Assembly (NCBI GenBank): GCA_041659065.1
Contig: JBAZYY010000003.1
Location: 20,696-84,695, forward strand
Direction: 5' to 3'
Origin: Parcubacteria group bacterium
GTDB lineage: Bacteria > Patescibacteriota > Minisyncoccia > Moranbacterales > UBA11712
Length of the DNA stretch: 64,000 bases
The position numbers and the translations under genes were made by a program. Under the pieces are notes generated by a model, which was not told where the DNA came from, made no database searches, and saw nothing but the letters and a program-made list of their open reading frames with translations. This document shows, in pieces, positions 19,969-42,182 of this stretch (its first letter is position 1; every line of letters begins with the position of its first letter).

Positions 19969-19980
19969 TCCCGGGACAGG
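19969..19980 (+). repeat. left direct repeat (attL-like): copy of tRNA 3' end TCCCGGGACAGG
   Basis: An exact 12-mer, 17/20 over the extended alignment, identical to the 3' acceptor/T-stem segment of the tRNA gene at 41622..41634. The tandem motif atcctacgc x2 follows. Confidence 0.55.
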
Positions 19981-19998
19981 TATCCTACGCTTAGCATC

Positions 19999-20313
19999 CT
20001 ACGCCAGGGGCTTCGGAGCGCCATGCTTCGGACTACTCTTGCGTCCGAGTAAAAAATCCTTAGCCAAGGCTACTGATAATAAACGCTTATATGCAAATGC
20101 TTTTCCTGAACCAGATTTCAAATATTGCTCAAAATCTCTAGCTTGTTTTTCAGTCTCAAAAGCGGAGTACCAAACCAATCTCCAAGGCAAATGAGGTTTT
20201 GTCGATTTCACATTGCCGGAATTGTGTAATTTTATTCTCTCTTTAAGATTATTTGTTGAACCAAAATAAAATATATGAGATTTTGAGCTAAGTAAAATAT
20301 ATGTATAGTGCAT
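19999..20313 (-). CDS. GIY-YIG nuclease superfamily protein (YhbQ-like)
   Basis: YTYILLSSKSHIFYFGSTNNLKERIKLHN is a GIY-YIG core. The start was set at MHYTYILL; the ORF track extends it to 20358. Confidence 0.7.
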   Translation of the reverse strand: MHYTYILLSSKSHIFYFGSTNNLKERIKLHNSGNVKSTKPHLPWRLVWYSAFETEKQARDFEQYLKSGSGKAFAYKRLLSVALAKDFLLGRKSSPKHGAPKPLA

Positions 20314-20527
20314 AACAAAAACCAAGGCTAATAATAGAATAGTATACCATAGTGGCATGCCATTCCGTAGCCTTGGCGAAGGATGGCTCCCTGAGCCGGT
20401 CTAGAACCGGGGATTATTGACGTTTTCAAGGAGCTTTCGGGGGTTTACGATTTTTGGAAATTTGAAGAGGATCGGTCGCAATTCGAAAAGCAAAATGAGA
20501 CAAATGAGACACGAGACAGCACTTGTC

Positions 20528-21634
20528 TCATTTTGAAGAATGGGACATCTCCCTGTCTCTTTTTTTGAGATCACTTTCAATAAGCTTTCTTAAATTTTCT
20601 TCGCCTTCTACTCCCCTGAGGCGTCCCGTAAGAAATCCCAGGCGATATCTGGCTCCATCGCTCATCAGACGCCAATTCGTGCCTTCTAGAGCTTTCTTGA
20701 AGATTTTTTGAAGCTCGTGGACACTGTCCCATTCGGATCGGCCGGATTTGGAATCTTGCAGGCCAAAGCCCAAAATAACATCTTTTTGAAGTTCAGGTTT
20801 TTCAAATTCTAGTTTAGCGTAACCTGCTTTCTTAAGAATCGGATCAAGGAGTTTTTGAAGCTCTGAAATGGTAAGATTTTTTATATTATCAACGGCTTCA
20901 TAGAGTTCTTTGTTTTCTTCTTTTTCTTTCCAGTCATCCATAAGTTTCCCCATGCTTTCAATCTGACTCATAATCTCGTATCCTTCCTGCTCCGGAAGGC
21001 AGTATTTCTTTCGATTGGCTTCAAAGTCGGGATCAATCTGTTCTTCTTTCTCTTCGGCCAAATCTAGTGTGTCAATTTCTATGTGGCCGCATTGTGGGCA
21101 GGAATATTTTGTAGTAATGATATTATCTTTTCTTCTGCTTTCTGATTGCGCTTCCGCTTTGCATTTTATGCAAATCGGCTTATGCTCCCATTCTTTTCCG
21201 TTTTCCCAATATGCTCGACGCTTACCGCATTTCTTGCACTCAAACATAAAAAGGACTTCCTCTTTTCCTTGATGATTGTTCATAAGATCGCGGGACGTGC
21301 AATTTTTCAAAAGTGAGCTGCAATTGAGGCATCGAACACCTTGAGGTTCCCGGGCATTGGCAATTTTTTCGTCCTTGGCTTGATCTCGCTTCATCCATTC
21401 CTGGATCACTTCCGATTTTTTTGAAGCGTAATCGGCCTTCATAATGTTGAGGACAAGCGGAACAGCCGCTTTTTTGAAGTATTCTTTTTTTATCTTTGCC
21501 AGCTTTTTTTCTTTGCCCTTAAGCTTGGAAATGTCTTTTGGATATTTCGTGTTATCCCAACGTTGGCATTTTTCAATAGTGAGTTTGTCGTAGAGCTCGC
21601 TGTAATAAGTGTGATCTTTGAGATATTGATACAT
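20528..21634 (-). CDS. multi-zinc-ribbon protein of unknown function (368 aa)
   Basis: Several CxxC pairs (CLNCSS...C, FECKKCGKR, CIKCKAE, CPQCGH). It lies 3 bp downstream of the 1220-aa gene, and a hairpin/T-run terminator overlaps its stop. Confidence 0.5.
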   Translation of the reverse strand: MYQYLKDHTYYSELYDKLTIEKCQRWDNTKYPKDISKLKGKEKKLAKIKKEYFKKAAVPLVLNIMKADYASKKSEVIQEWMKRDQAKDEKIANAREPQGVRCLNCSSLLKNCTSRDLMNNHQGKEEVLFMFECKKCGKRRAYWENGKEWEHKPICIKCKAEAQSESRRKDNIITTKYSCPQCGHIEIDTLDLAEEKEEQIDPDFEANRKKYCLPEQEGYEIMSQIESMGKLMDDWKEKEENKELYEAVDNIKNLTISELQKLLDPILKKAGYAKLEFEKPELQKDVILGFGLQDSKSGRSEWDSVHELQKIFKKALEGTNWRLMSDGARYRLGFLTGRLRGVEGEENLRKLIESDLKKRDREMSHSSK

Positions 21635-21637
21635 CTT

Positions 21638-24600
21638 TTATTTCTTATTCAATTCCCAGTATTTGCTAGGATTTCTATCAAAAAGGTTTTTTATAATTTT
21701 CTTGGCATCTTTGTCTGATTTAGATAATTCCTTTACTGCGGATACTATTGCATCTGATTCGTGTAAATCTATTTCGTTGGGAAAAGAAAAAAATATATTT
21801 GCAACTTCCATAAATTTATCTTTTCCCATTTTTTCATTAATAAGCTCCAATATCCTTGAATGATATAATGTGGGATACCATCTCACTTCTGAAAGATTTC
21901 CAGATTTTTTTGTTTCTTCATAGAAAGCGGCTTCATTTTTCAAACATTTAAGAAGCAAGTCGTACCAAGCATCCAGATGTTTATTGGCTTTTTCTTGAAG
22001 TTTTTTTTCTATAGTTTGGTAAACAAGATTATATATATTGTGGGCATACTTATCAGTCATAAAATTGAAATATTCGAGAGCGAGACTTTCATATTCATCA
22101 ATCTTGTTCTCTTTGACTGCAATCTCTCGCATTAGGTGTTCGACAGAGGCAGCAAACTTGAAGCAACTATCGGGATCTTGTTTTTGCATATCCTTTATTA
22201 TTTCTTTTGTTGCTTTTTTGAATTTCTTGTCATTAAATTTATCTGGCCCAAGATCATCATAAAGTACTGGCGAACTAAATCTCCATTTTTTGTAGGCATC
22301 TTTTCTAAATTCAGCAAGATATATAAATAAGGATGCCGCTTCATCAATCGCTTCTATCGGAAGTCTTCTTAAATTGGTAACTAATTTCCATGAATCAGCC
22401 TCATTTAGCGATCTTATTGGGTCAAAAGCATGTAATATACTTTTTGTCATTGCTTTTTGAACATTAACTGGCCATGAAGCAAGCCTGTCCAATAGATCAA
22501 ATGCTATTCTTTCCACTTTCTTTGACATTTTTAATGCTTTCTTTTTATCATCATTAAAGAAAAGGGTATTTCTATCCGAGGGCAAGACAGTCAGCCTGTT
22601 TCTTGCGAGCTGTCCTAGAGCAAAACAAGCCATGTGCGTAACATAGTAATTTTCATCTACAGTAAGTTTTTTCGTCAGATTTATTATTTCGTTAAGTTGC
22701 TTCCGTCCTTCGAGAATTGGGCATTTCATTAATGTCCATCCGCACCATCCTCTAACTGAGGTTATTGTGCTCGGCTCTTCTCCTTGCTCGATTTTTTTAT
22801 GCTCATTATATTTATCTTCTTTATCATTGGGATCTTTACCTGAAAGATATGGATCGGGATCATCAATAAAAACTTTAATAATTCTTATTGCCTTATCTAT
22901 TTGTTTGTGGGCAGCCAGCCTCACTGCAAATTGGACAAATGCATAACGACAACTATCATCAGAAAATCTCTGGTAAATTTTTTTGATATCATCTCCAGTG
23001 GATTTCAGATATGGATCTATAATATCCTTATAAATTTTATTCAAAAATGTTGGGTCGGTAGCTTGATCATTTCCTCTATTATTAAATAGGCTATAAGCAA
23101 AGATTATTTGCTGACTTTTATTTAGTTTTTTCTCTCCTTCTAAATCCCTAAGTATTTTTAGTCCCTTAGTGTAATCTTTATTTAAAATGTCGTGAAGCAG
23201 CCCCGCTACATCATAAGCGCCAAATGTATCTCCTTTTTCTGATTGGACATATTCACTTTTCAAAAAGGATTTAAATAATTCAACAGAAAAATCAATATCG
23301 ACATCCAAAAAAGCTTTGATACTTGAGACGGAGTCAATTTCAAGTAAGCGATGCTTGTAATAGTCCGGGCTAGCAAACCATTTTTTTAGCTCAGCTTTTG
23401 CTTTTGTATGACTATTTTTTGCAAGATTAGTTACGATCTGTTCCACAAAGGGATTTACAGGCACTCCATATTTTTTTGTTGTTAACTCAGCTAGTCTCCA
23501 TTTTTTGTCATCAATTAAATCGCTACCGATAACTGCTTGATAAATCAAATCAGATTTGTGCGGAATACCTCTTCTGGAAAGAATGAGTTCTCTTAAAATT
23601 TCAAACGCTTCTCCAGACGTTTTCTTATCAGCACTGGCATATCTTTTTAATACAATATGATAAACAGAGCGATTAAGAAAATCTGGCCTTCGTTTCGAAA
23701 CTGGTTTTGTAATTACTTTATTTTTTGTTTTTTTATCGGTCTTGCTTAAACATCTTTCTTTGATAAAATTCCAACAGTCCTTTTCATTTTTTGCATAATA
23801 TTTATCAATGGCACAAGTAAATACATTGACAAAGTGACGATCATATACATGATGCGAACCACTGAAAGATATTCCTCCGCCAGAATGTTCCCAGCCATCA
23901 AAGCTTATATTTTTGCTATATGTTTTATAGAACTTATCATACTGATTAACAACTTCCTTAACTAACCTTTCAAAACGATCAAGAAAATATTTCGTCTTGG
24001 CTCCTTTATTAATCCAATCAATAAGAATGTCAAAAACCTCCTTAGGAGAGTAATGGCTGAATTGGCTGTCGTCTTCAACAATATTAAAAACATTTATAAT
24101 CAAACGAATAGTTTTTTCTTCTATATTGGAGCCCCCAATATTATAAATTCTGTGTAATGACTTGCAGATCTCTTCTTTTTCCCATTTTCCATGATCATAG
24201 TCATTGTCTTTGATATAGAAAAATTGCTGACCATCAAACGTCAATAAATCCTTTACAATAATAAATGCATCATCAAGATACCTTTTCCCATTTTTACTAT
24301 CAATAATTTTTGTAAGTATTTTAATAACATCAACATCAAAGAAATCTGAGCGATAAAAACCTCGAATTGTTTTAGTATATTTTTTTATGTACCCAAGTAC
24401 ATATTTTATATTTTTTTCCGTTTGCAGATTATTTTCAAAAACGTCAAAAATACCAAATGTAAAATGATATACCTTATTCAACTGCCATAACTTATCCCAC
24501 TTTTTTAGATCAAGGTCGGTTCGTGTTTTGAGTCTGTCGATGGCAAACGACATTAAATCCCAACGAATAGAGAAAGCGGATATCGAACGGCTACCTAATG

Positions 24601-25300
24601 TAATTTTTCCGTTTCCATTAATAATTTTTTCTAATGCCACAAATTGCTTCTCTCTCTTTATTTTCAGATTAAAATAATCACTACTTGTTTGGATTTCTTT
24701 TTTAAATTTTTCTATTTCTTCAACAATATTCGTTCTATTATATGTCGCTCCACTTGCTGATCCTTTATAAATTTTTTGAATTAAAATATTGTCAACAAAT
24801 CTTTCAATATCCTCCGGTGGAAGCCAAAAATTGATTAGTTCTGCAAATAGAGAATAAATTACATCCTCGTTAAAAGATGCTGGAACTACCCAAAACTGAA
24901 CTTTTGGCAGGAGAGATAATAATTGAGATGAGTAACCCTTTTTAGCAAATTTATTTTGAAGTTGTTCAAAATACTTAACATTGTGAACATTGGAAATTAA
25001 GTCAGTATTCGCTTTACTACATATAATAAGTATTTCATCTTTATCACCTAATGATCCCTTTTTCACAATATTTTCCAACACCTCTTTAAGATGTGGGTAG
25101 CTGAATTTTTCTTTTCTGTCTTTTGATTCGCAAATAATCTTTTTGCCATCGTCAAAAACAAGATTAAAGTCCTCAAAGTTTGTTGCTTCAAGCTGAATAG
25201 ATAAAAATTTTGGATCACGCAGATGCTGAAAAAACAAAGACATTGCAGCCCATGCCTGTGCATTTATTCCTTTATAATTGTATTGTCCTGCTTTACTCAT
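21638..25300 (-). CDS. 1220-aa protein with N-terminal PD-(D/E)xK-like nuclease motif and large alpha-helical body
   Basis: Uninterrupted 3.66-kb ORF. The N-terminus has FEDFNLVFDDG...ICESKDRK (D...ExK arrangement). No Walker A motif is found. It overlaps the upstream AlbA_2 gene by 4 bp. Confidence 0.55.
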   Translation of the reverse strand: MSKAGQYNYKGINAQAWAAMSLFFQHLRDPKFLSIQLEATNFEDFNLVFDDGKKIICESKDRKEKFSYPHLKEVLENIVKKGSLGDKDEILIICSKANTDLISNVHNVKYFEQLQNKFAKKGYSSQLLSLLPKVQFWVVPASFNEDVIYSLFAELINFWLPPEDIERFVDNILIQKIYKGSASGATYNRTNIVEEIEKFKKEIQTSSDYFNLKIKREKQFVALEKIINGNGKITLGSRSISAFSIRWDLMSFAIDRLKTRTDLDLKKWDKLWQLNKVYHFTFGIFDVFENNLQTEKNIKYVLGYIKKYTKTIRGFYRSDFFDVDVIKILTKIIDSKNGKRYLDDAFIIVKDLLTFDGQQFFYIKDNDYDHGKWEKEEICKSLHRIYNIGGSNIEEKTIRLIINVFNIVEDDSQFSHYSPKEVFDILIDWINKGAKTKYFLDRFERLVKEVVNQYDKFYKTYSKNISFDGWEHSGGGISFSGSHHVYDRHFVNVFTCAIDKYYAKNEKDCWNFIKERCLSKTDKKTKNKVITKPVSKRRPDFLNRSVYHIVLKRYASADKKTSGEAFEILRELILSRRGIPHKSDLIYQAVIGSDLIDDKKWRLAELTTKKYGVPVNPFVEQIVTNLAKNSHTKAKAELKKWFASPDYYKHRLLEIDSVSSIKAFLDVDIDFSVELFKSFLKSEYVQSEKGDTFGAYDVAGLLHDILNKDYTKGLKILRDLEGEKKLNKSQQIIFAYSLFNNRGNDQATDPTFLNKIYKDIIDPYLKSTGDDIKKIYQRFSDDSCRYAFVQFAVRLAAHKQIDKAIRIIKVFIDDPDPYLSGKDPNDKEDKYNEHKKIEQGEEPSTITSVRGWCGWTLMKCPILEGRKQLNEIINLTKKLTVDENYYVTHMACFALGQLARNRLTVLPSDRNTLFFNDDKKKALKMSKKVERIAFDLLDRLASWPVNVQKAMTKSILHAFDPIRSLNEADSWKLVTNLRRLPIEAIDEAASLFIYLAEFRKDAYKKWRFSSPVLYDDLGPDKFNDKKFKKATKEIIKDMQKQDPDSCFKFAASVEHLMREIAVKENKIDEYESLALEYFNFMTDKYAHNIYNLVYQTIEKKLQEKANKHLDAWYDLLLKCLKNEAAFYEETKKSGNLSEVRWYPTLYHSRILELINEKMGKDKFMEVANIFFSFPNEIDLHESDAIVSAVKELSKSDKDAKKIIKNLFDRNPSKYWELNKK

Positions 25301-26118
25301 GTTTGATGGGCTTGTTCATATTTAGTCAGAAAGTCTGTTATTTTGCTTGCCAATTGGTTGCAATCCTCAAGAACACTTGAATTATCAAGCACACCTAGAT
25401 TATCTCCATTAGTAATGCCAACCGCTTGTTTCTTTTTTATACCTTCATAAAGATTTGCAATTTCAGTAAGTGAGCAGGAAAGGGCCATAAATTCTGGATT
25501 TCTACCCAAACTGCGATCTTCCAAATATCCTTTCAGGGATTTTAAATATAAGACATCTATATGGTCTGGATTAAACCTAGCATTATTTATTTTAGTGAGA
25601 TCTCGCTGAAGATCGCCAATGTTTTTGGGATCGAATTTATTTATTAAAAACTTTTCTCTAATTTCGTTTCCGTCATGAATTGGAATATTTTCTCCATTAC
25701 CTCTCTTGTATATTTTATGTTCTGTAATATGCGGCCTCACAAAATATGGTGAAGGAAATATATAGACACAATACACAAATAGCATTCTTTTCCTTGGAAT
25801 TTTAAAAGTTTTTATATCCCACCCATTGTCAGATATGGCTGGTAGAATATTAGCATTAATAATACGACTTATTTTTGTCCTTAAGTCAGTCACCTTACCA
25901 ACGCCAATAATATTTTTCGAATCGTCAACTCCAAAAATAATTATGCCTCCATTAGTATTGGCATAAGCGCAGAAAGTATTTCTTATTCTTTGATTTTCTA
26001 AGTTAATTATTTTTTTCCATTCATGCCACCAACATTCTTGACTATCTAGATCCCTTAACCAAGATTGAAAATCATCGAATTCCCAAGTTGTTATTTTTTT
26101 CCAATCCATTTTATTCAA
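25297..26118 (-). CDS. AlbA_2 (Schlafen-like / divergent AAA-4) domain protein
   Basis: FCAYANTNGGIIIFGVDDSKNIIGVGKV matches the AlbA_2 putative DNA-binding domain core. It starts 57 bp after the hsdR stop on the same strand. Confidence 0.6.
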   Translation of the reverse strand: MNKMDWKKITTWEFDDFQSWLRDLDSQECWWHEWKKIINLENQRIRNTFCAYANTNGGIIIFGVDDSKNIIGVGKVTDLRTKISRIINANILPAISDNGWDIKTFKIPRKRMLFVYCVYIFPSPYFVRPHITEHKIYKRGNGENIPIHDGNEIREKFLINKFDPKNIGDLQRDLTKINNARFNPDHIDVLYLKSLKGYLEDRSLGRNPEFMALSCSLTEIANLYEGIKKKQAVGITNGDNLGVLDNSSVLEDCNQLASKITDFLTKYEQAHQT

Positions 26119-26175
26119 CCTTTATATACGACCGAAATTATTATATAAAAGTGAAAAAAGATTTATTGTATATTT

Positions 26176-29256: not shown

Positions 29257-29258
29257 AG

Positions 29259-30164: not shown

Positions 30165-30184
30165 GTTATCTTACTCTTATTTTT

Positions 30185-31899: not shown

Positions 31900-31900
31900 G

Positions 31901-32653: not shown

Positions 32654-32655
32654 AG

Positions 32656-34206: not shown

Positions 34207-34402
34207 GATTTTGGTTGATTATTTTTAAGACATCTTCTTTTTTGTATCTGCGATCGCCACGTTTTCCAAATCGGATGGCTTTCAGCGTGCCTTCATTATC
34301 CCAATTGCGAAGCGTGTTGGGATGGCAATTTAGCAGCTCGCAAGCGTCCTGAAGCGTCAGTATTTCCGGATATTCTTCAATTTTTCGTGATTGCTTTTTC
34401 AT
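34193..34402 (-). CDS. small HTH DNA-binding protein (excisionase/AlpA/MerR-like)
   Basis: [44 protein letters not shown] is an HTH_17-type helix-turn-helix. It overlaps the hsdM start by 14 bp. Confidence 0.6.
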
Positions 34403-34428
34403 AAAATATGACTTAACATTAGTTTACA

Positions 34429-35274: not shown

Positions 35275-35383
35275 GTTATAATTTTCCGAGGGCTAGTAGC
35301 ATTGCATGATTTAATAGACACAGTTAGCTGTGTCTATTTTTTTATCGAAAAAAGACACGGTAATAATTATTAAGTAAAAATCT

Positions 35384-36733
35384 ATGACACCACAAAATGT
35401 CGCAGAGAAAATCTCGAGGGAAAAACTTCGAGTCGAGTACGTGGACGCTTCGATGCTCAAAGCGTCCGAATACAATCCTAGGAGAATAAGCAAAGAAGGG
35501 ATGGAGCACCTAAAAGAAAGTATTCGTCGATACTCTCTTGTGGATCCCCTTATCGTGAACTCAGCTCCCAACCGCAAAGGAATTTTGATTGGGGGTCACA
35601 TGAGATTACGAGCAGCCGTAGAGCTAGGAATCAAAAAAGTGCCGATAGTCGAGCTAAATATTCCGGATATCGAAAAGGAAAAAGAACTCAATATACGACT
35701 CAACAAAAACACGGGGGAATTCGATTGGAACTTGCTAGCTGATTTCGGCGAAACATTTCTCGCTGATGCGGGCTTCACCAGCGAAGAGTTGGATAATATT
35801 TTTGCAGTCGAAGACTCGCCCGAATTGTTTGATCTTCAGAAAGAATTGACTAAGCTCGATATAAAAAAAATCGAAATCCAAAAAGGCGATGTTTGGCAAT
35901 TCGGCGAATCGAGATTGATGTGCGGCGACTCAACCGTCGAAGCCGATATGTTAAAACTTATGAACGGCGAAAAAGCTGACATGTGCTTCACTGATCCCCC
36001 GTACATTTTAGACTATCTTAAGGGTAAGAAAAAGAACGGAAAACCGATTGAAGGATTTGGCTATAAACGCGATCGCAAATACCTTGAAACTGACATTCTA
36101 CCAGACGACTTCACGGAAAAATGGATGTCGAATATCCACGAAGTAGCCAATGAAAATTTCTCCATTATTGTTTATGAGAATTGGAAAAACATCAGGACTA
36201 TTTGGGGAGAAATGGAAAAGTATTTCAAGATGAAGAACATGATTGTGTGGCACCTTCCCAATCGAGTCCAGGGATTCGCCGCAAAATACAAATTCTTTAA
36301 TAAACACGATATCGCCATGGTCGGTGGCAGTGGAAATGTGACAATCAACATGGAATCGGAAGATGAACTACTTCAAAACGAATACGAAACCGCCCTATTT
36401 GGAATTCAAGGCAAGCCTCACTGGGAAAGTTATGAAAAAGGCAAAAAAATCTGTCCTACTGACTTTTTGGAATTTAAGGCAGCTGATGAAAAAAGTTCCG
36501 GGCAAGGAATAATTTTCGGAACTAAGCCGACGGAAATATTGATTCCATACATCAAAGTCCTTACAAAACGAGGCAGCCTAATTGTCGAGCCCTTTGGCGG
36601 AAGCGGATCGACTTTGATTGCGGCCGAGAAAATGAAACGCAGGTGCTACCTTATGGAAAAATCCCCAGTATACGCTGAAGTTATCCGCAACCGTTGGGAA
36701 AAACTAACTGGCAAAAAAGCCACAAAAATATGA
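35384..36733 (+). CDS. ParB-like nuclease domain fused to N6/N4 DNA methyltransferase (phage-type)
   Basis: An N-terminal ParB/Srx fold (LIVNSAPN..GILIGGHMRLRAAVELG), then methylase motif IV CFTDPPY and a C-terminal motif I-like EPFGGSGST (permuted beta-class order). Confidence 0.8.
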   Translation: MTPQNVAEKISREKLRVEYVDASMLKASEYNPRRISKEGMEHLKESIRRYSLVDPLIVNSAPNRKGILIGGHMRLRAAVELGIKKVPIVELNIPDIEKEKELNIRLNKNTGEFDWNLLADFGETFLADAGFTSEELDNIFAVEDSPELFDLQKELTKLDIKKIEIQKGDVWQFGESRLMCGDSTVEADMLKLMNGEKADMCFTDPPYILDYLKGKKKNGKPIEGFGYKRDRKYLETDILPDDFTEKWMSNIHEVANENFSIIVYENWKNIRTIWGEMEKYFKMKNMIVWHLPNRVQGFAAKYKFFNKHDIAMVGGSGNVTINMESEDELLQNEYETALFGIQGKPHWESYEKGKKICPTDFLEFKAADEKSSGQGIIFGTKPTEILIPYIKVLTKRGSLIVEPFGGSGSTLIAAEKMKRRCYLMEKSPVYAEVIRNRWEKLTGKKATKI

Positions 36734-36871
36734 AAAAGCAACATCACAAAAAAAGCCTTTCTGGAGCACCTTCGTAAAATTCCAATTATACAAGTAAGTT
36801 GCGAAAAAACCGGCATCGCAAGATGCACGATCTATCGTTGGAAAAAAGAAAGCAAGAAATTCGCCAAAGAA

Positions 36872-37120
36872 ATGGAGAATGCATTGGCTGAGGGAGAAGC
36901 CCTGATAAACGACATGAGCGAATCCCAGCTAATATCGCTCATTAAGGACAAGAATTTCAGCGCCATAAGATTCTGGCTCAAAAATCGTCACGAAAAATTC
37001 CGTGAGCGATTTGAAGTAACGACTAATTTACAAGGACAAGAAGAATTGACCAAAGAACAAAAAAACGTTGTCCGGGAAGCTCTCCGCCTAGCATCACTCG
37101 GCAATAAAAAGAAGAAATAA
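36872..37120 (+). CDS. terminase small subunit-like HTH protein (annotated from first ATG; ORF likely begins upstream at a non-ATG codon)
   Basis: The open frame extends back to 36734 (ITKKAFLEHLRKIPIIQVSCEKTGIARCTIYRWKK...) with an HTH, then AIRFWLKNRHEKFRERF resembling terminase small-subunit C-terminal motifs. It lies directly upstream of TerL. Confidence 0.4.
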   Translation: MENALAEGEALINDMSESQLISLIKDKNFSAIRFWLKNRHEKFRERFEVTTNLQGQEELTKEQKNVVREALRLASLGNKKKK

Positions 37121-37138
37121 CTATTAAAATTTAATTCC

Positions 37139-38587
37139 ATGTCAACCGACAAAACGCTAAACAAAAAAATAATCAATCGGATGCTCAAAGATAAGCAAGT
37201 CCGCATTGCAATCACCAAAGAAAGCCACTATATATTCTTTCACCTATATTTTTCGCACTATGTTGTATACCCAACAGCTGAATTTCAAAAAGAGATTTTT
37301 GAGATGACGGAAGATAAAAAGAAGAAAAGCCTATTTATAGTCGCCTTTAGATCTTCCGCTAAATCGACAATTGCCACAATGTCACTTCCGATCTGGTCAA
37401 TTCTCGGAAAGCACCAGAAAAAGTTTGTGCTCATTCTGTGCCAGACCCGCCACCAAGCGAAACAGCATATGATAAATCTTAAACAAGAATTGGAAAGCAA
37501 CGAACTGCTCAAAAACGATCTGGGGCCATTCCAAGAAGAAGGAGATTCCGAATGGGGCACGACATCGCTGGTGTTTTCGCGCCTCAACGCTCGGATCAGC
37601 GTAGCTTCCTCCGAGCAAAGTATCCGCGGACTGCGTCACAACCAATACCGACCCGATTTAATCATTGGTGACGATGTTGAAGATATGAACTCAACAAGAA
37701 CTCGAGAAGGTCGGGATAAAACCTACCAGTGGCTGACCAGTGAAGTTATTCCCTGCGGAGACCGAAACACTCGGTTGGTTATTGTCGGAAATCTTCTCCA
37801 TGAAGATTCGCTCCTCATGCGATTGAAACAAGATTTGGAGGAAAAAAAGATTGACGGACATTTTTTGTCCTACCCGCTGGTTGATGAAAACGGTATCATC
37901 CTTTGGCCGGGGAAATATCCAACACCGGAAGATATCGCCCTTGAGCGAAAGAAGATTGGTAGTGAATCTGCTTGGCAACGTGAATTCCTGTTACGTATCG
38001 TTCCCAGCGAAGGACAACTTATCGATCCGAGATGGATCCGCTACTATGACGAATTGCCGACCAAAGCTGAAGCGCGATTCAGATATACCGCCACCGGAGT
38101 CGACTTGGCTATTTCAAAAAACGAAACGGCCGATTATACCGCCATGGTGTCGGGTAATATTTATAACTGGGACGGTGATGTTACCATTTATATCTTGCCG
38201 GATCCCATCAACAAGCGATGGAGTTTTCCAGAAACAGTTGACCAGATAAAAATTCTCGCCAATGCCGGCAAGAATTACCCCTACTTCTATATCGAGGAAA
38301 TCGGATATCAGGCTGCTTTAATTGGACAGCTTCAGCACGAAGGTATCCGCAATGTCAGCGGAGCCAAGGTGCATGGGCAAGATAAGCGTTCAAGGTTGGC
38401 GCTTACTACACATCTCATCAAATCAGGAAAAGTGCTTTTTCCGAGAAAGGGCGCGGAATTTCTGATTCAGCAACTGACCGGATTTGGCATTGAGAAACAT
38501 GATGATTTGGCCGATGCTTTTGCGATTCTCGTGCTCAAAACCATGCAAGGCGATCACTGGCTTCCGAGGGTTGATTGGGTATCATAA
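37139..38587 (+). CDS. phage terminase large subunit
   Basis: ATPase region (VAFRSSAKSTIAT Walker A-like; LIIGDDVED Walker B) and a C-terminal RNaseH-like nuclease region (YTAMVSGNIY ... YIEEIGYQA ... HDDLADAFAI). Confidence 0.8.
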   Translation: MSTDKTLNKKIINRMLKDKQVRIAITKESHYIFFHLYFSHYVVYPTAEFQKEIFEMTEDKKKKSLFIVAFRSSAKSTIATMSLPIWSILGKHQKKFVLILCQTRHQAKQHMINLKQELESNELLKNDLGPFQEEGDSEWGTTSLVFSRLNARISVASSEQSIRGLRHNQYRPDLIIGDDVEDMNSTRTREGRDKTYQWLTSEVIPCGDRNTRLVIVGNLLHEDSLLMRLKQDLEEKKIDGHFLSYPLVDENGIILWPGKYPTPEDIALERKKIGSESAWQREFLLRIVPSEGQLIDPRWIRYYDELPTKAEARFRYTATGVDLAISKNETADYTAMVSGNIYNWDGDVTIYILPDPINKRWSFPETVDQIKILANAGKNYPYFYIEEIGYQAALIGQLQHEGIRNVSGAKVHGQDKRSRLALTTHLIKSGKVLFPRKGAEFLIQQLTGFGIEKHDDLADAFAILVLKTMQGDHWLPRVDWVS

Positions 38588-38626
38588 TAGGCGTTTTTCA
38601 AGGCTTTTCGGGGTCTGGACAAAGGT

Positions 38627-40012
38627 TTGGGTTTGCGTCATTCATTGTGGTATATGAATACTCAAATGAATCAGACTATTACAAGCCAGATAGGTGCCAA
38701 ACCGCCGGAGGAACCGATGAAAACACGCTATTGCCTTTACGCGAGAAAATCCACCGAATCGGAAGAGCAGCAGGTGCTTTCCATAGAATCCCAAGTGAAG
38801 GAAATGCTCCAGATCGCCGAACGCGATGGACTCGAGATTGCGGAGATCCGGCGCGAAAGCCATTCGGCGAAAGATTCGGGACAGCGGCCCGTGTTCAGCG
38901 AACTTGTTGAAGACATCCGAAAAGAAAAATTCAACGGCATCCTCACCTGGGCGCCGGATCGCTTGAGCCGCAATGCCGGAGATCTCGGATCGCTTGTCGA
39001 CCTCATGGATCAGAAACTCCTGTTCGAGATCCGCACATACGGGCAAACCTTTGCCAACTCGCCGAACGAAAAATTCCTACTGATGATTCTTTGCTCGCAG
39101 GCGAAGCTCGAAAACGATAACAAGAGCGTCAACGTGAAGCGGGGTCTTCGGGCGAGGTGCGAAATGGGACTCTGGCCGACGCTTGCTCCAGTCGGATACA
39201 CGAACGGACAGACCGAAGATCGGAAAGGCCGCGTCGTCCCGGATTCCGAAAGAGCTCCGGTCGTCAAAAAAATCTTCGAGAAGATGGCTCACGAGAAATG
39301 GAGCGGAAGGAAAATATTTCACTGGCTCAAGTTCGAGCTTAACTTCAAAACCAGAGGCGGAAAGTCTCTGTCGCTCTCGAGTATATACGTCATGATCCAG
39401 AATTCTTTTTACTACGGCCCCTTTGAATATCCAAGAGGAAGCGGAAACTGGTATCAGGGGAAGCACGATCCGATCATCACGAAGGAATTGTTCGATCTTG
39501 CGAACGAGCAGATCAAGCGCGATCGGATTGTGAAAGACAGCAAGGAGTTCGCTTTTACTAAATTGATGAAATGCGGATTGTGTGGGTCGGGAATCTCGGC
39601 CGAAGAAAAATACAAGAAGCTCAAGAACGGGAATGTCAACAAACACGTATATTACGGATGCACGAGATCGCGGGATCTCAAATGCAAATGTGGATACATG
39701 AAAGAAGATGACATAATTTCGCAGCTGGTGAAAATAGTGGATGATCTCGATATGAACGAGATCGGAATTAAGAAACAATTTCAGGAAGAGGTGGAGCGAT
39801 TCAACAAATTCCAACAGATGGTGCTCAAGATGAACGGCCGGGAAAACGAAATAGATAAAATGTTGGAATTCGATATCCGGATGTATGCCAAATATGTATT
39901 GAAAGAAGGAAGTGTTACTGAAAAAAGAGAAATGCTGGCGGGACTCACAAGCAAGCTGATCGTGGAGAACAAGCAGATCCGACTGGAAAAAGCGGAGAGT
40001 GAAAAAAGTTGA
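38627..40012 (+). CDS. large serine recombinase (phage-type integrase)
   Basis: N-terminal resolvase catalytic domain (YCLYARKSTESEEQQ with catalytic Ser; WAPDRLSRN), a recombinase domain, and a zinc-ribbon CGLCGS...YYGC...C. Confidence 0.85.
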   Translation: MGLRHSLWYMNTQMNQTITSQIGAKPPEEPMKTRYCLYARKSTESEEQQVLSIESQVKEMLQIAERDGLEIAEIRRESHSAKDSGQRPVFSELVEDIRKEKFNGILTWAPDRLSRNAGDLGSLVDLMDQKLLFEIRTYGQTFANSPNEKFLLMILCSQAKLENDNKSVNVKRGLRARCEMGLWPTLAPVGYTNGQTEDRKGRVVPDSERAPVVKKIFEKMAHEKWSGRKIFHWLKFELNFKTRGGKSLSLSSIYVMIQNSFYYGPFEYPRGSGNWYQGKHDPIITKELFDLANEQIKRDRIVKDSKEFAFTKLMKCGLCGSGISAEEKYKKLKNGNVNKHVYYGCTRSRDLKCKCGYMKEDDIISQLVKIVDDLDMNEIGIKKQFQEEVERFNKFQQMVLKMNGRENEIDKMLEFDIRMYAKYVLKEGSVTEKREMLAGLTSKLIVENKQIRLEKAESEKS

Positions 40013-40234
40013 TAAATCAGCAGAGAAGCAGTATAGTGATATTAACAATTTAGCCTAAACTCACGCCTTCTGGTGTGAGCATGGCGCATAAAACCTAGCT
40101 AATAGAGACGGCCTCATGGTCGACACTTATTAGCTAGGTCGGTGTTCCGAAAGGGCATCGGGCAATCCGAAAGGGTTGTCGTCGTACTGTGGGGCCTTTT
40201 GTGTACCCACAAAATAAATCCTAGCTAAAAAATC

Positions 40235-41164
40235 ATGGAAAAAAACTATTGGGTCGTCCGGATGGGCGAAGCAAACAAGTATGCCGATTATGCGCACGAA
40301 AACAATCTAGTCGCCATCGGCTGGAACGAACTGAAAAAAGACTTGAACGAGTATCGGGCGTTGAATAAAAAAGAATTCTTCAAAACAGTTATTCCTCTTC
40401 TCGAAGAAGCCTATGAAATTAACTCAAAGGCAAATTCAATGAATGCCGGCCAGTTATTCAGATTCAGCAACTTGGTGGAAATCGGAGATATTGTGCTGGT
40501 GCCAAAAATGCAGGAAGGAAAAGTATATGTCGGTTCGATCGAAGGCGATTATATATATCATCAGGAATCGCCTGACGAATTCGGCTATCATCACAGAAGA
40601 GCGGTGAAATGGATCAAAACAATCAGCACCCAAGATCTATCCCAGAATCTGCGCAATTCAATCGGAGCGATGATGACGATTTTCAGCGTCAACAAATATG
40701 CGGACGAAATTGAGACGCTATTAAGCAAAGACAAAGGCGCAAGCAATGATATAGAAAGTTTGGAAAGCTTCGGGCTGGAATCCCAACTCGAAGATTTTAT
40801 TGTGGAAAATTGGGATAAACTCACTTTGGGTAAAAGTTATGAAATCCTGCAAGAGAATGGTCAGATAATCGGCCAGCAATTCGCAACACCAGTCGGAAGA
40901 ATAGATATTCTTGCCAAAAATAAAGATGGCAAAGAGTGGCTGGTGATCGAACTCAAAAAAGGAAAAAGCAGCGACCATGTTATAGGACAAACATTGAGAT
41001 ACATCGCCTGGATCAAGGAAAACGAGGCTGGAGCGGATGAAAATGTCAAAGGCCTCATAATCACCAAAGATCAAGATGAAAAGTTGAAATATTCCTTGAA
41101 AGCCGCGCCCGATGTGGATTCGATGACCTATTCGGTAAATTTTCAACTGAATAAACCTGAATAA
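40235..41164 (+). CDS. DUF91/NucS-like PD-(D/E)xK nuclease with N-terminal PUA/EVE-like domain (possible modification-dependent restriction enzyme)
   Basis: The C-terminus has PVGRIDILAKNKDGKEWLVIELKKGKSSDHVIGQTLRYIAWI (DUF91 signature). The N-terminal ~150 aa (YWVVRMGE...W...GDIVLV) has an EVE-like pattern; this domain call is tentative. Confidence 0.5.
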   Translation: MEKNYWVVRMGEANKYADYAHENNLVAIGWNELKKDLNEYRALNKKEFFKTVIPLLEEAYEINSKANSMNAGQLFRFSNLVEIGDIVLVPKMQEGKVYVGSIEGDYIYHQESPDEFGYHHRRAVKWIKTISTQDLSQNLRNSIGAMMTIFSVNKYADEIETLLSKDKGASNDIESLESFGLESQLEDFIVENWDKLTLGKSYEILQENGQIIGQQFATPVGRIDILAKNKDGKEWLVIELKKGKSSDHVIGQTLRYIAWIKENEAGADENVKGLIITKDQDEKLKYSLKAAPDVDSMTYSVNFQLNKPE

Positions 41165-41446
41165 TCAATGAATGTTGAGTATTGAAAAAACGAAAGAATT
41201 GCTAGATGACAAAACCATATCGGACGATCAAGCCGAAAAAATCAGGGATGATGTGCAGACGCTTGCCGAAATCATCATCGAAAAATACATATCTGACAGA
41301 AAAAGCGGAAAGTGGAAAGACTGAAATTTCAGACCAACAAAAAGAAGCTATCGCGGAAAATATAGCCTCTTTTTTCTTCAAGTTTTGGAAGAATAGAAAT
41401 AATCTAAAATCGACGGAATAATTTTGAAGCCATCGAAATACAAAAA

Positions 41447-41471
41447 CCAAGGCCTTTCGAGCCTTGGTTTT
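41447..41471 (+). terminator. rho-independent terminator
   Basis: ccaaggc-ctttcga-gccttgg hairpin followed by TTTTAT. Confidence 0.6.
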
Positions 41472-41621
41472 ATATCTTGATGGCGATAGGACTGGAACCG
41501 AATTAATGGCTTGAATAAAGTAAATCGATTTTTTTATGGCGACCGGACGTTGTGAAGCTATGGCCTAAAATAGCTTGTATATAGTAAAAAGGATCGGTCT
41601 CTCGATAAAAAAATGTAGCTG

Positions 41622-41930
41622 CTCCCGGGACAGGATTCGAACCTGTAACCAATTGATTACACTTATCCTAATGTTTCCAAAAGGGGTGGACTATATCATT
41701 CCCGCATAGCGGGATGAGGCGCTTCCCCCGACGTGACGTCGGAGTACTCTCTTTCGAGATAGTCTCTGAACCTTCCCTGACATTAAGTCGGGGCTTGGCT
41801 TCTGATTACCTTTTTTCGGCTGAAGAAAATTAAGGCTTCCAGAAATTCACCTCATTTTCACTTCCAAATTTCTCTGAAAGGCTGCGTTTAATGTTCACAG
41901 TCAACTGCTCTACCATTGAGCTACCCGGGA
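41622..41930 (-). tRNA. tRNA gene interrupted by a group I intron in the anticodon loop (anticodon most consistent with GUU/Asn; alternatives not excluded)
   Basis: 5' exon UCCCGGG-UA-GCUCAAUGGUAGAGC-A-GUUGA-CUGU. The 3' exon is UAAUCAAU-UGGUU-ACAGGUUCGAAUCCUGU-CCCGGGA-G. The acceptor halves are perfectly complementary across ~300 nt. The intervening ~236 nt carries the group I core elements R (GGTTCAGAGACTA) and S (ATGATATAGTCC), a P1 (CUGU/GCAG with a U.G pair at the splice site), a P10, and a terminal G. Confidence 0.7.
41660..41895 (-). ncRNA. group I self-splicing intron (tRNA anticodon-loop insertion)
   Basis: Conserved R and S elements forming P7 (GACUA/UAGUC), P- and Q-like elements (AATTTCTGGAAGCC / AATCAGAAGCC), and an omega-G at the 3' end. 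There is no internal ORF. Confidence 0.65.
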
Positions 41931-41933
41931 ATA

Positions 41934-42170: not shown

Positions 42171-42182
42171 AAACTATTATTG

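What the first reader, a model, noticed from the sequence alone, without database searches (positions are those of the whole stretch)
19969..41634. A ~21.6-kb island flanked by direct repeats of a tRNA 3' end, with a large serine recombinase at the tRNA-proximal end
The 12-mer TCCCGGGACAGG is the 3' acceptor half plus the T-stem 3' strand of the tRNA at 41622..41930. It recurs in direct orientation at 19969..19980, and the match extends to 17/20 with flanks. In a 64-kb window the chance of an exact 12-mer at that specific site is about 0.01. Genes between the repeats are accessory: type I R-M, HEPN, AlbA_2, a giant nuclease-like protein, ParB-MTase, TerS/TerL, a serine recombinase and an EVE?-DUF91 nuclease. 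Genes outside the repeats are core. tRNA-targeting elements usually use tyrosine integrases, so a serine recombinase with this att geometry is less common. The repeat at the left end is followed by a tandem atcctacgc x2 motif, which could be a recombinase-binding subsite.
Basis: partly seen in the sequence, partly recalled or inferred. Interest (0 to 1): 0.7.

Follow-up and report, generated by a model that had tools for sequence, protein, structure and literature searches.

The report
Serine-recombinase island beside a tRNA gene
A 21-kb mobile island carrying defence genes sits right after a tRNA-Asn gene in a candidate-phyla-radiation (CPR) bacterium, and it belongs to a large, apparently undescribed family whose serine recombinase gene almost always lies next to the 3' end of a tRNA gene, a target this enzyme class is thought to avoid.

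Summary
TCCCGGGACAGG occurs exactly twice, and 41622..41930 is a genuine minus-strand tRNA-Asn(GUU) split by a group I intron.

The island is real too. Two relatives carry different cargo between tRNA-Asn and the same 180-aa gene.

The 12-mer is probably not the recombinase's footprint. It is best explained as the flanking repeat of a ~400-bp GIY-YIG cassette (19981-20385). Such cassettes sit at tRNA ends (8 of 13 versus 0.37 expected) and are usually flanked by a repeat of that end (20 nt around a lone cassette in L029).

The recombinase element proper is about 20386..41626, bounded by a 6-bp core, GGGAGC. Joined in silico, its ends align as one 331-bp match (80%, E=6e-79) to a relative.

Across 75 homologous recombinase genes, 22 had a detectable downstream tRNA (the window makes 23). 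In every case the nearest one has its 3' end facing the recombinase gene. Only one tRNA lies upstream. The targets cover eight amino-acid specificities.

The family core is ParB-methylase, small and large terminase, the recombinase, and often the orphan LOOT RNA. No virion genes were found in the members examined.

That the recombinase catalysed the insertion is inferred, not shown.

The parts
41622..41930 (-). tRNA-Asn(GUU) gene: 5' exon 41930-41897, group I intron 41896-41660, 3' exon 41659-41622. This is the integration target.
   Evidence: Rfam RF00028, 78.7 bits. In-silico splicing gives a 73-nt tRNA-Asn. Intron-less orthologues occupy the same position in L085-L088 and L100. Insertion position 35/36 is as published in PMC13011429.
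41623..41634 (+). 12-mer copy 1: the last 12 nt of the tRNA before the discriminator (T-stem 3' strand plus acceptor 3' strand).
19969..19980 (+). 12-mer copy 2 ('R2'): a displaced copy of the tRNA-Asn 3' end on the far side of the 3' GIY-YIG cassette, 66 bp from the start of the 180-aa gene.
   Evidence: It parallels the 20-nt repeat around the L029 cassette and the 14-38-nt repeats around other cassettes.
19981..20385 (-). 3' GIY-YIG cassette (ORF 19999-20358, 119 aa). Inferred to have been the original 3' neighbour of tRNA-Asn before the recombinase element inserted. It contains the ATCCTACGC x2 motif at its 3' end.
   Evidence: Pfam GIY-YIG, 4e-17. Homologous cassette ends in L096. GIY-YIG lies immediately 3' of tRNA-Asn in L021 and L029.
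20386..20391 (-). Distal copy of the 6-bp common core GGGAGC (read on the tRNA-sense strand). Proposed attR crossover region.
41621..41626 (-). Proximal copy of the core GGGAGC. It covers the last four acceptor bases, the discriminator and one further base. Proposed attL crossover region.
20392..20533 (-). Distal terminal block of the element. It contains AATGAGACA repeats and a pseudo-tRNA 3' end ('R1', pseudo T-arm GGTTCTAGACC at 20396-20408).
   Evidence: 80% identical to L100 9150-9296. R1-type motifs lie at the far end of L091, L096 and L100.
41442..41620 (-). Proximal terminal block of the element, including the terminal motif ACATTTTTTTATCGAGAGACCGAT at 41593-41616.
   Evidence: The same motif follows tRNA-Asp in L102 (2 errors in 20, same offset) and in L091, and follows tRNA-Asn in L100. 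80% identical to L100 9291-9479.
38627..40012 (+). Large serine recombinase. The ORF as listed is 461 aa from a TTG codon; the true start is probably an internal Met. Catalytic motif YARKST (Ser42), DRLSRN motif, and a zinc ribbon.
   Evidence: Pfam Resolvase, Recombinase and Zn_ribbon_recom. phrog_95 integrase, 4e-70. NCBIfam CcrB/XisF-like, below the curated cut-offs. Sequence.
40052..40180 (+). LOOT RNA (Rfam RF03000), 40 nt downstream of the recombinase stop codon.
   Evidence: 69.7 bits against a gathering score of 46.4. Same position in L089, L090, L091, L096 and L107. Covariation.
40235..41164 (+). PD-(D/E)XK/NucS_C nuclease, PADLOC candidate defence protein PDC-S02. Cargo lying between the recombinase and the tRNA.
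   Evidence: A 40% identical homologue lies in the L100 island.
35384..38587 (+). Family core module: ParB_N-DNA methylase (35384-36733), an 82-aa small-terminase-like protein (36872-37120) and the large terminase TerL (37139-38587).
   Evidence: Homologues are present in 56, 55 and 52 of 74 family loci respectively.
34429..35274 (+). 281-aa protein of unknown function, specific to this element.
   Evidence: No match in Pfam, PHROGs, NCBIfam, PADLOC or PDB. Found in 1 of 74 family loci.
26176..34206 (-). Type I restriction-modification cluster with inserts: HsdM (32656-34206), Hypoth_Ymh/HEPN-like (31901-32653), HsdS (30646-31899), AAA_33 (30185-30649), PD-T7-5-like (29259-30164) and HsdR (26176-29256).
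25297..26118 (-). Schlafen/AlbA_2 domain protein.
20474..25300 (-). Portable two-gene cassette: a 1220-aa protein (21638-25300) and a 368-aa zinc-ribbon-rich protein (20528-21634). Function unknown.
   Evidence: 77-89% DNA identity to L091. No family matches. The 368-aa model has pLDDT 87 and no PDB fold match.
41922..42243 (-). 5' GIY-YIG cassette (ORF 41934-42170, 78 aa), flanked by the 14-bp direct repeat TACCCGGGAATATT (41922-41935 and 42230-42243). The repeat comprises tRNA nt 1-9 plus 5 upstream nt.
19361..19903 (-). Lineage-specific 180-aa gene: the conserved far flank of the hotspot.
   Evidence: Homologues at 66-68% identity flank the tRNA-Asn hotspot in L100 and L101. DNA homology resumes at 19914.

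Best explanation
The tRNA-Asn(GUU) gene of this Patescibacteria genome carries three independent selfish insertions.
1. A group I intron sits in the anticodon loop.
2. Two small GIY-YIG cassettes sit one at each end of the gene. Each is flanked by a short duplicate of the tRNA end it abuts, so the tRNA stays intact.
3. A ~21.2-kb integrative element (about 20386..41626) is inserted exactly at the tRNA's 3' terminus, between the tRNA and its 3' cassette.

The element belongs to a very large CPR family. The family core is a ParB-methylase, a small and a large terminase, a large serine recombinase and often the LOOT RNA, with variable defence cargo. Here the cargo is a type I R-M system, PD-T7-5-like, AlbA_2 and PDC-S02 proteins, and an unknown 1220-aa/368-aa pair.

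Proposed mechanism (inferred). The serine recombinase recombines an element site (attP) with a host site (attB). attP consists of a pseudo-tRNA 3' end as its left arm, the core GGGAGC, and the conserved arm ACATTTTTTTATCGAGAGACCGAT. attB has the T-arm and acceptor stem of the tRNA gene as its left arm. Crossover falls in the last few bases of the tRNA. Because only ~6 bp are shared, no long repeat is made and the tRNA is not disrupted.

It is the GIY-YIG cassette's own flanking repeat, and the 21-kb insertion later pushed its two copies apart.

Shown: the anatomy, the homologies, the family statistics and the hotspot variability. Inferred: that the recombinase catalysed the insertion, the exact crossover position, the order of events, and whether the element is still mobile.
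For: Hotspot:
- L100 has tRNA-Asn(GTT) and the 180-aa gene homologue bracketing a different 8.1-kb island. The P0123/L101 genome has yet another.

Element ends:
- blastn places L100 9150-9296 on window 20533-20386 and L100 9291-9479 on window 41626-41442, overlapping on GGGAGC.
- The in-silico join gives one 331-bp alignment (80%, E=6e-79) across the junction. A join through the 12-mer aligns on one side only.

The proximal arm belongs to the element:
- The same motif lies 7-14 nt after tRNA-Asp in L102 and L091, and after tRNA-Asn in the window and L100.
- In 2.2 Mb, the two hits to the tRNA-Asp form of the motif core both lie beside a tRNA 3' end. The tRNA-Asn form occurs only in the window, L100 and L101.

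Distal arm:
- The R1 pseudo-T-arm GGTTCTAGACC lies at the far end of the window, L091, L096 and L100 elements.

Family rule:
- Among 75 recombinase genes, the nearest downstream tRNA is convergent in 22 (23 with the window) and co-oriented in none.
- The pooled counts are 27 convergent to 1 co-oriented.
- One tRNA lies upstream, in 570 kb scanned upstream against 344 kb downstream.

Other support:
- The recombinase is intact, with three Pfam domains and the Ser42 motif.
- No tyrosine recombinase was found among the island ORFs of at least 80 aa. The 368-aa protein next to the distal end has a confident model with no recombinase fold.
- L091 has the same architecture: R1, the 368/1220 cassette, methylases, recombinase, LOOT, cargo, the terminal motif, then tRNA-Asp.

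Origin of the 12-mer:
- GIY-YIG genes lie within 300 bp of a tRNA, on the same strand, in 8 of 13 cases against 0.37 expected.
- Flanking repeats of the abutting tRNA end measure 20, 15, 38, 14 and 12 nt. The control using the other tRNA end gave none.
- In L029 the 20-nt repeat brackets only the ~350-bp cassette.
- L021 and L029 show the order tRNA-Asn, GIY-YIG, then RsgA. That is the order predicted for the window without the element.
Against: - No same-species empty site or circular junction was found. Exact-protein look-ups returned only contigs collinear with the window.
- Reconstructed attP and attB show no significant dyad symmetry about the core. attP scores 13/30 and attB 14/30, and 41% and 18% of shuffles do as well. 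Characterised serine-integrase sites are imperfect dyads.
- In L100 the two terminal blocks are contiguous inside a chromosome beside another island. This needs an extra assumption: a relic of an older element, or serial integration. An alternative reading is that the 185 bp after the tRNA is ancestral host trailer in this lineage.
- R1 is adjacent to a GIY-YIG cassette in L096 as well as in the window. The cassette may therefore have homed into attR after integration and not before it.
- No family member showed an end repeat above control level within the 10 kb available.
- No recombination directionality factor is identifiable in the window. The HTH_17 gene present in L090 and L095 is absent here.
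- TerL is fragmented in L090 and L096, so many copies may be decaying relics.
Confidence: 0.6

Rival explanations
1. One 21.6-kb island (19969..41634) integrated by the serine recombinase into the 3' part of tRNA-Asn, with crossover inside the 12-bp identity. The 12-mers are attL and attR, and the GIY-YIG gene is the terminal cargo gene.
For: The repeat is an exact 12/12, in direct orientation, ends exactly at the acceptor end, and lies 66 bp from the conserved flank gene. Serine recombinases tolerate short cores (PMC9262239). GIY-YIG also lies next to R1 in L096, so it might travel with the element.
Against: A join through the 12-mer is collinear with L100 and L101 on one side only, whereas the GGGAGC join is collinear across the junction. 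GIY-YIG cassettes generate the same kind of tRNA-end repeat on their own. L091 has the R1 end without a GIY-YIG gene. The copy-2 flank has AC where the shared core has GC.
Confidence: 0.2
2. A layered hotspot with no single element. The recombinase element is only the ~7-kb right-hand module (about 34.3-41.6 kb). The R-M cluster, the AlbA_2 gene and the 1220/368 cassette are remnants of older islands that accreted at the same tRNA.
For: Composition is mosaic: GC is 0.345 at 19969-26150, 0.453 in hsdR and 0.422 in the recombinase module, and tetranucleotide distance peaks at 20-25 kb and 27.5-32 kb. The 1220/368 pair is a portable cassette. L100 and L101 show serial turnover at this site. Gene strand and GC skew switch at 34.3 kb.
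Against: The terminal blocks that are contiguous in L100 lie at 20.4 kb and 41.6 kb, not at 34 kb. L091 carries the same far end and the same cassette, with a 76% identical recombinase, in one 16.7-kb unit bounded by R1 and tRNA-Asp. R-M cargo is common in family members.
Confidence: 0.12
3. A classical tRNA island made by an unrecognised tyrosine integrase, for example the 368-aa or 281-aa protein. The serine recombinase would be a passenger, or an invertase or resolvase.
For: The 368-aa gene lies next to the distal end in the window and in L091. The L100 island shows a 38-bp repeat typical of tyrosine-integrase islands and has no serine recombinase.
Against: No Phage_integrase match among the island ORFs of at least 80 aa. 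The 368-aa model (pLDDT 87) has no PDB match below E=0.02 and none to a recombinase. The 281-aa protein has no PDB sequence match. Recombinase gene orientation relative to the tRNA is essentially invariant across the family, which a passenger gene would not show.
Confidence: 0.04
4. Nothing mobile: the 12-mer is a chance match and the region is ordinary chromosome.
For: A 12-mer from the tRNA 3' end recurs by chance in about 2.5% of simulations, and other chance 12-mers exist. GC differs only modestly from the flanks.
Against: Relatives have different content at the same bracket. The cargo consists of defence and phage genes. The family-wide tRNA association and the shared terminal motifs also argue against chance.
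Confidence: 0.02

Closest known systems
Large serine recombinase (serine integrase) elements such as phiC31, Bxb1 and SPbeta prophages, and SCCmec Ccr or XisF elements
   Same: The same three-domain recombinase (Resolvase, Recombinase, zinc ribbon). A very short shared core (6 bp here). The recombinase gene lies near one end of the integrated element.
   Different: Characterised serine integrases insert into protein-coding genes. For mycobacteriophages they are stated not to use tRNA genes (PMC9262239). This family sits at the 3' end of tRNA genes of at least eight specificities. The dyad symmetry expected of att sites was not detected. No directionality factor was identified.
Classical tRNA-targeting genomic islands and prophages with tyrosine integrases (P4-like, PICI, Tycheposons and others)
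   Same: The island lies at the 3' end of a tRNA gene, and the integrase gene is at the tRNA-proximal end. The cargo is defence genes. Different islands occupy the same tRNA in related genomes, and serial accretion leaves remnants.
   Different: There is no tyrosine integrase. The element itself is bounded by only ~6 bp of identity instead of a 20-50-bp copy of the tRNA 3' end. The longer 12-bp tRNA repeat nearby belongs to another element.
Phage satellites and cryptic prophages
   Same: An integrase plus a packaging module (small and large terminase) without capsid, portal, tail or lysis genes. Defence cargo is present. IMG/VR classifies many members as viral.
   Different: No replication or helper-interference module was recognised. 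A large terminase without any capsid gene is unusual for described satellites. Helper dependence is untested.
Free-standing GIY-YIG homing endonuclease genes (for example T4 SegB in the phage tRNA gene cluster; recalled from memory, not checked here)
   Same: A small GIY-YIG ORF beside tRNA genes, behaving as an independent insertion.
   Different: Here the cassettes sit exactly at tRNA gene ends in a bacterial chromosome. They are flanked by a 12-38-nt duplicate of that end, which keeps the tRNA intact. Nuclease activity and target are untested.
LOOT RNA (Rfam RF03000), an orphan structured RNA known from metagenomes
   Same: A full-length match above the gathering score, with strong covariation.
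   Different: No genomic association or function is given in the sources I could read. Here it is linked to a serine-recombinase element family in two fixed arrangements.

Membership tests
Large serine recombinase | N-terminal resolvase catalytic domain with the nucleophilic serine | tested here: met
   PF00239, 2.3e-19. The YARKST motif with Ser42 and the DRLSRN motif are present and nearly invariant across 22 homologues.
Large serine recombinase | C-terminal recombinase domain plus zinc-ribbon domain | tested here: met
   PF07508, 4.7e-14, and PF13408, 6.2e-7. phrog_95 integrase, 4e-70.
Large serine recombinase | Short common core between attL and attR (about 2-12 bp) | tested here: met
   The 6-bp GGGAGC lies at both proposed junctions. 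This depends on my choice of junctions.
Large serine recombinase | att sites are imperfect dyads of ~40-50 bp centred on the crossover | tested here: inconclusive
   Ungapped dyad score is 13/30 for attP and 14/30 for attB, not above shuffles.
Large serine recombinase | Catalyses attP x attB integration | not testable with these tools
   Needs a recombination assay.
Classical tRNA-integrating island (tyrosine integrase type) | Encodes a tyrosine recombinase | tested here: not met
   No such match among the island ORFs of at least 80 aa. The fold of the 368-aa protein is unrelated.
Classical tRNA-integrating island (tyrosine integrase type) | Island bounded by a direct repeat of the tRNA 3' end that restores the tRNA | tested here: inconclusive
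   A 12-bp repeat exists but is better assigned to the GIY-YIG cassette. The element itself shares 6 bp.
Classical tRNA-integrating island (tyrosine integrase type) | Site occupied by different content, or empty, in relatives | tested here: met
   L100 and the L101/P0123 genome carry different islands in the same bracket. L021 and L029 show tRNA-Asn, GIY-YIG, then RsgA with no island.
Temperate prophage | Virion structural genes (portal, capsid, tail) and lysis genes | tested here: not met
   None in the window. None after TerL in L123 by PHROGs, in L095 by the precomputed Pfam annotation of its called genes, or in L089, where only small ORFs follow TerL.
Temperate prophage | Terminase and integrase | tested here: met
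   TerL matches phrog_38, 1e-79; the recombinase matches phrog_95.
Phage satellite (PICI-like) | Integrase, a replication module, packaging redirection, and induction by a helper phage | tested here: inconclusive
   An integrase and terminases are present. No primase or replication gene was recognised in the window. Helper dependence cannot be tested.
LOOT RNA (RF03000) | Match to the covariance model above the gathering score | tested here: met
   69.7 bits against 46.4. Across 27 copies, 88.8% of cells are paired against 58.7% in shuffles, and strand-specific G.U pairs are present.
Patescibacteria tRNA group I intron at position 35/36 | Group I intron between anticodon positions 35 and 36 of tRNA-Asn(GUU) | tested here: met
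   Described in PMC13011429.
GIY-YIG homing-endonuclease-like cassette | GIY-YIG catalytic domain in a small free-standing ORF behaving as an insertion | tested here: met
   PF01541, 4e-17. tRNA-end association and flanking repeats. Nuclease activity was not tested.

The most novel reading that the evidence does not exclude
This CPR-wide clade of large serine recombinases uses the universally conserved T-arm and acceptor end of tRNA genes as the left half of its attachment site, and crosses over in the last bases of the tRNA. The clade can therefore retarget among many tRNA species (Ser, Asp, Gln, Glu, Trp, Arg, Asn and possibly Met) by changing a pseudo-tRNA arm in its own attP. If so, it is a naturally retargetable serine integrase system. 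The elements would also be terminase-only, satellite-like defence carriers that encode the orphan LOOT RNA as a regulator of recombinase expression or of the element's life cycle.
Probability: 0.3. Interest if true: 0.8.

Novelty: new variant of a known kind. Interest (0 to 1): 0.6.

Why it matters
Serine integrases are important genome-engineering tools, and their natural targets are usually protein-coding genes. The large discovery survey (PMC10083194) does not mention tRNA in its main text, and a major review says serine integrases of mycobacteriophages do not use tRNA genes.

It sits at the 3' terminus of many different tRNA genes. Studying it would show how such enzymes can exploit a conserved target without disrupting it, and how target choice shifts between close relatives.

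It also identifies a main vehicle of defence-gene traffic in CPR bacteria, whose mobile elements are poorly known. It gives the orphan LOOT RNA its first genomic context.

Finally, it shows that a single tRNA gene can host three or four unrelated selfish elements. That is a caution against reading any tRNA-end repeat as an integrase footprint.

Tried and rejected
- RsgA-based search for an empty site in 80 species genomes. RsgA neighbourhoods are not syntenic at 57-71% identity, so there was no direct empty site. The loci later served as an unbiased CPR sample.
- Exact-protein look-ups of the genes nearest each end. They returned only short contigs 99.96-100% identical to and collinear with the window. 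The nuclease is not on record.
The large terminase alone found no IMG/VR relative.
- LOOT as a guide RNA pairing with the target tRNA: cognate pairs share no more sequence than non-cognate pairs, so I rejected this in its simple form.
- The LOOT central hairpin as a DNA-level att site: the RNA has GNRA loops and strand-specific G.U pairs, and it also occurs three times in L014 without a recombinase. I did not pursue it.
- ATCCTACGC as a recombinase subsite: rejected, because it is the GIY-YIG cassette's 3' end.
- Repeats of the tRNA 3' end at the far side of 22 family elements: nothing above controls within the 10 kb held.
- The homology shared between the window and L091 as an element terminus: it covers only the portable 1220/368 cassette.
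- My interim idea that 41442-41626 is native host trailer: weakened when the same motif was found after tRNA-Asp in other genomes.
- Dyad symmetry of the reconstructed att sites: not significant.
- A hidden tyrosine integrase: rejected.

Full report
**1. The observation**

The 12-mer TCCCGGGACAGG occurs at 19969-19980 and 41623-41634 on the same strand. It occurs nowhere else in the window, even with one mismatch allowed.

ARAGORN reports no tRNA in the window. Rfam finds a group I intron at 41667-41907 on the minus strand (78.7 bits). The flanking sequence is a split tRNA.

The U.G pair in helix P1 puts the 5' splice site after U35. Joining 41897 to 41659 gives a standard 73-nt tRNA-Asn(GUU). 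Relatives have an intron-less tRNA-Asn(GTT) at the same place. A 2026 paper shows that position 35/36 introns are typical of Patescibacteria tRNA-Asn and are missed by ARAGORN (PMC13011429).

The repeat alone is weak evidence. A tRNA-3'-end 12-mer recurs by chance on that side in about 2.5% of simulations. Other chance 12-mers from the tRNA region exist in the window.

**2. Host and gene content**

The flanking genes place the window in Patescibacteria (CPR). The closest RsgA match is Moraniibacteriota at 71% identity. The source MAG is labelled 'Parcubacteria group bacterium'.

Gene content between the repeats, left to right, is as follows:
- a GIY-YIG protein
- an unknown 368-aa protein and an unknown 1220-aa protein
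- an AlbA_2 protein
- a type I R-M system with Hypoth_Ymh, AAA_33 and PD-T7-5-like inserts
- an unknown 281-aa protein
- ParB_N-methylase, an 82-aa protein, and the large terminase TerL (phrog_38, 1e-79)
- a complete large serine recombinase
- a LOOT RNA (RF03000)
- a PDC-S02/NucS-like nuclease

No capsid, portal, tail, lysis or tyrosine-integrase gene is present.

Composition is mosaic. Tetranucleotide distance to the flanks peaks at 20-25 kb and at 27.5-32 kb. It is only mildly raised over the recombinase module.

**3. Is it an island?**

No close relative exists in the collections. However, the 180-aa protein next to the left repeat is lineage-specific.

In L100 (68% identity), a tRNA-Asn(GTT) and the 180-aa gene bracket a different 8.1-kb island. 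Its contents include an AEP-helicase, Fic and a NucS-like nuclease. The P0123/L101 genome carries R-M, OLD and Vsr genes upstream of the same 180-aa gene, and its distal junction (L101) matches L100's.

The right flank (SpoIID, S8 peptidase, GT4, IleRS, RecO) is syntenic in L085-L087.

The interval between tRNA-Asn and the 180-aa gene is therefore a genuine integration hotspot.

**4. Where the ends are**

blastn of L100 against the window gives three blocks:

| L100 | Window | Identity / content |
|---|---|---|
| 9990-10578 | 19914-19320 | the 180-aa gene |
| 9291-9479 | 41626-41442 | 80%, just 3' of the tRNA |
| 9150-9296 | 20533-20386 | 80%, between the 368-aa gene and the GIY-YIG gene |

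The last two blocks abut in L100 and overlap on GGGAGC. That hexamer is present at both 20386-20391 and 41621-41626 in the window.

Joining the two window ends at this core gives a single 331-bp alignment to L100 across the junction (80%, E=6e-79).

The block next to the tRNA starts with ACATTTTTTTATCGAGAGACCGAT. The same motif follows tRNA-Asp in L102 (2 errors in 20, same offset) and in L091. It therefore belongs to the element and is not host trailer.

The far block ends in a pseudo-tRNA 3' end (R1, with the pseudo T-arm GGTTCTAGACC). R1 also marks the far end in L091, L096 and L100.

L091 repeats the whole architecture in 16.7 kb, between R1 and tRNA-Asp. Its 1220-aa protein is 91% identical to the window's, its 368-aa protein 76%, and its recombinase 76%.

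I therefore place the recombinase element at about 20386..41626.

**5. What the 12-mer is**

The 405 bp between R1 and the 12-mer is a GIY-YIG cassette. A second cassette (ORF 41934-42170) lies at the 5' end of the same tRNA. It is flanked by a 14-bp repeat made of tRNA nucleotides 1-9 plus 5 upstream bases.

In 2.2 Mb of CPR DNA, 8 of 13 GIY-YIG genes lie within 300 bp of a tRNA, always on the same strand. The expected number is 0.37. Five of the eight abut tRNA-Asn.

Flanking repeats of the abutting tRNA end are 20 nt (L029), 15 nt (L062), 38 nt (L095), and 14 and 12 nt (window). The control using the other tRNA end gave none.

In L029 the 20-nt repeat of the tRNA-Asn 3' end brackets only the ~350-bp cassette. 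L021 and L029 also show the order tRNA-Asn, GIY-YIG, then RsgA. That is what the window would look like without the 21-kb element.

The simplest history has two steps. The cassette first inserted at the tRNA's 3' end and made the 12-bp repeat. The recombinase element later inserted between the tRNA and the cassette.

The ATCCTACGC tandem is the cassette's conserved 3' end with a 14-bp local duplication.

**6. The family**

The recombinase has thousands of CPR homologues. All 8,000 scored candidates pass E<=1e-20, and the top 120 are at least 64% identical.

I analysed 75 genes in 74 loci:
- The nearest downstream tRNA is convergent in 22 genes (23 with the window) and co-oriented in none. Convergent means its 3' end faces the 3' end of the recombinase gene.
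- The pooled counts of downstream tRNAs are 27 convergent to 1 co-oriented.
- Only one tRNA lies upstream, although more upstream sequence was scanned.
- Distances from the recombinase stop codon to the tRNA range from 104 to 5644 bp.
- The nearest tRNAs are Ser (four anticodons), Asp, Gln, Glu, Trp, Arg and Asn.

ParB-methylase, the small-terminase-like protein and TerL accompany the recombinase in 56, 55 and 52 of 74 loci. No virion genes follow TerL in L089, L095 or L123. L123 carries a diversity-generating retroelement as cargo instead.

[quoted passage not shown] The large discovery survey never mentions tRNA in its main text. I found no paper describing this family.

**7. Mechanism, and what is not shown**

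I infer that the recombinase mediates attP x attB recombination, with crossover in the last bases of the tRNA.

Supporting evidence:
- It is the only recombinase found in the element.
- The short core fits this enzyme class.
- The gene geometry is invariant across the family.

Contrary or missing evidence:
- There is no significant dyad symmetry in the reconstructed sites.
- There are no junction reads.
- No directionality factor is identifiable.
- The contiguity of the terminal blocks inside L100's chromosome requires serial integration or a relic.

A hidden tyrosine integrase is unlikely. The 368-aa protein gives a confident model (pLDDT 87) with no recombinase-like fold.

**8. LOOT**

LOOT is an orphan RNA known from metagenomes.

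| Arrangement | Recombinase genes (of 75) |
|---|---|
| 38-68 nt after the recombinase stop, same strand (as in the window) | 6 |
| 150-211 nt upstream of the recombinase start, divergent | 8 |
| Any LOOT copy within 6.4 kb | 25 |

LOOT also occurs three times in L014 without a recombinase.

Across 27 copies, 88.8% of cells are paired against 58.7% in shuffles. The covariation score is 0.70 against 0.20, and G.U pairs are strand-specific. No LOOT-tRNA complementarity was found.

**9. Verdict**

The locus is a member of a large, apparently undescribed family of tRNA-3'-end-associated serine-recombinase elements in CPR bacteria.

Noticed in passing
window 40052-40180; L089, L090, L091, L096, L107 (3' of the recombinase); L031, L105, L108, L111, L116, L127, L128, L158 (upstream, divergent); L014 207-332, 9047-9182, 9423-9544: The orphan LOOT RNA (RF03000) is physically linked to this serine recombinase family in two fixed arrangements. 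It also occurs three times within 10 kb in L014 with no recombinase. Covariation is strong and strand-specific. Its function is unknown.
   Followed up: partly
window 41922-42243 and 19969-20385; L029 1955-2400; L062 9480-9872; L095 12472-12907; L021, L065, L067: Small GIY-YIG genes sit exactly at the 5' or 3' ends of tRNA genes, most often tRNA-Asn, on the same strand. They are flanked by a 12-38-nt duplicate of that tRNA end. They look like mobile cassettes that target tRNA gene termini while keeping the tRNA intact.
   Followed up: yes
window 41660-41896: A group I intron at anticodon position 35/36 of tRNA-Asn(GUU). It is absent from the orthologous tRNA in L085-L088, L100, L021 and L029. 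ARAGORN does not detect the gene. This class is already published (PMC13011429).
   Followed up: yes
window 20474-25300; L091 299-5756: A 1220-aa plus 368-aa gene pair is shared at 77-89% DNA identity with L091 and matches no known family. The 368-aa protein has several conserved Cys pairs that look like zinc ribbons and a confident predicted fold with no PDB match. Homologues share contig lengths with recombinase homologues, which suggests they lie on the same contigs. A 63% identical paralogue (P0187) lies elsewhere in the same MAG.
   Followed up: partly
window about 34200-34430: Gene orientation switches at this point: long ORFs are almost all on the minus strand to the left and mostly on the plus strand to the right. 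The cumulative GC skew reaches its minimum at about 33-35 kb, inside the element. This could reflect transcription-linked skew or proximity to a replication origin. No dnaA gene turned up among the genes annotated.
   Followed up: no
window 21093; L001, L097, L098: Contigs from three assemblies (JGI, ENA, Logan) all end at window position 21093, inside the 368-aa gene. A Logan contig (L002) ends at 41903, inside the tRNA. This may reflect repeated paralogues or strain variation. The assemblies may share the same reads.
   Followed up: partly
L089, L090, L095 versus window and L096: The ParB-methylase/terminase block is inverted relative to the recombinase gene in some family members and co-directional in others. 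TerL is fragmented in L090 and L096. This suggests frequent inversion and decay.
   Followed up: no
IMG/VR contig 3300014208_000734 (L114, L141), from the same metagenome as the window: A 24-kb 'viral' contig carries two family recombinase genes at opposite ends, each pointing outward toward its own tRNA (Ser-UGA and Arg-GCG). It is probably two elements back to back. Several other contigs also carry two recombinase genes.
   Followed up: no
L123 3616-5016: One family member carries a diversity-generating retroelement (Avd plus reverse transcriptase) as cargo between the terminase and the recombinase.
   Followed up: no
L086 9560-9760 and upstream: In more distant relatives, the 3' side of tRNA-Asn is also occupied by mobile-looking genes: an XRE-like ORF, endonuclease VII, a LexA-methylase fusion and AlbA_2. 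A partial copy of the tRNA 3' end lies 55 bp away (9706-9735).
   Followed up: partly
window 12522-16438: The left flank is not purely core. It holds a wHTH-HATPase-DUF4325 gene and a staphylococcal-nuclease-like gene. The 167-aa protein at 12522-13025 has a 43% identical homologue inside the L100 island.
   Followed up: no
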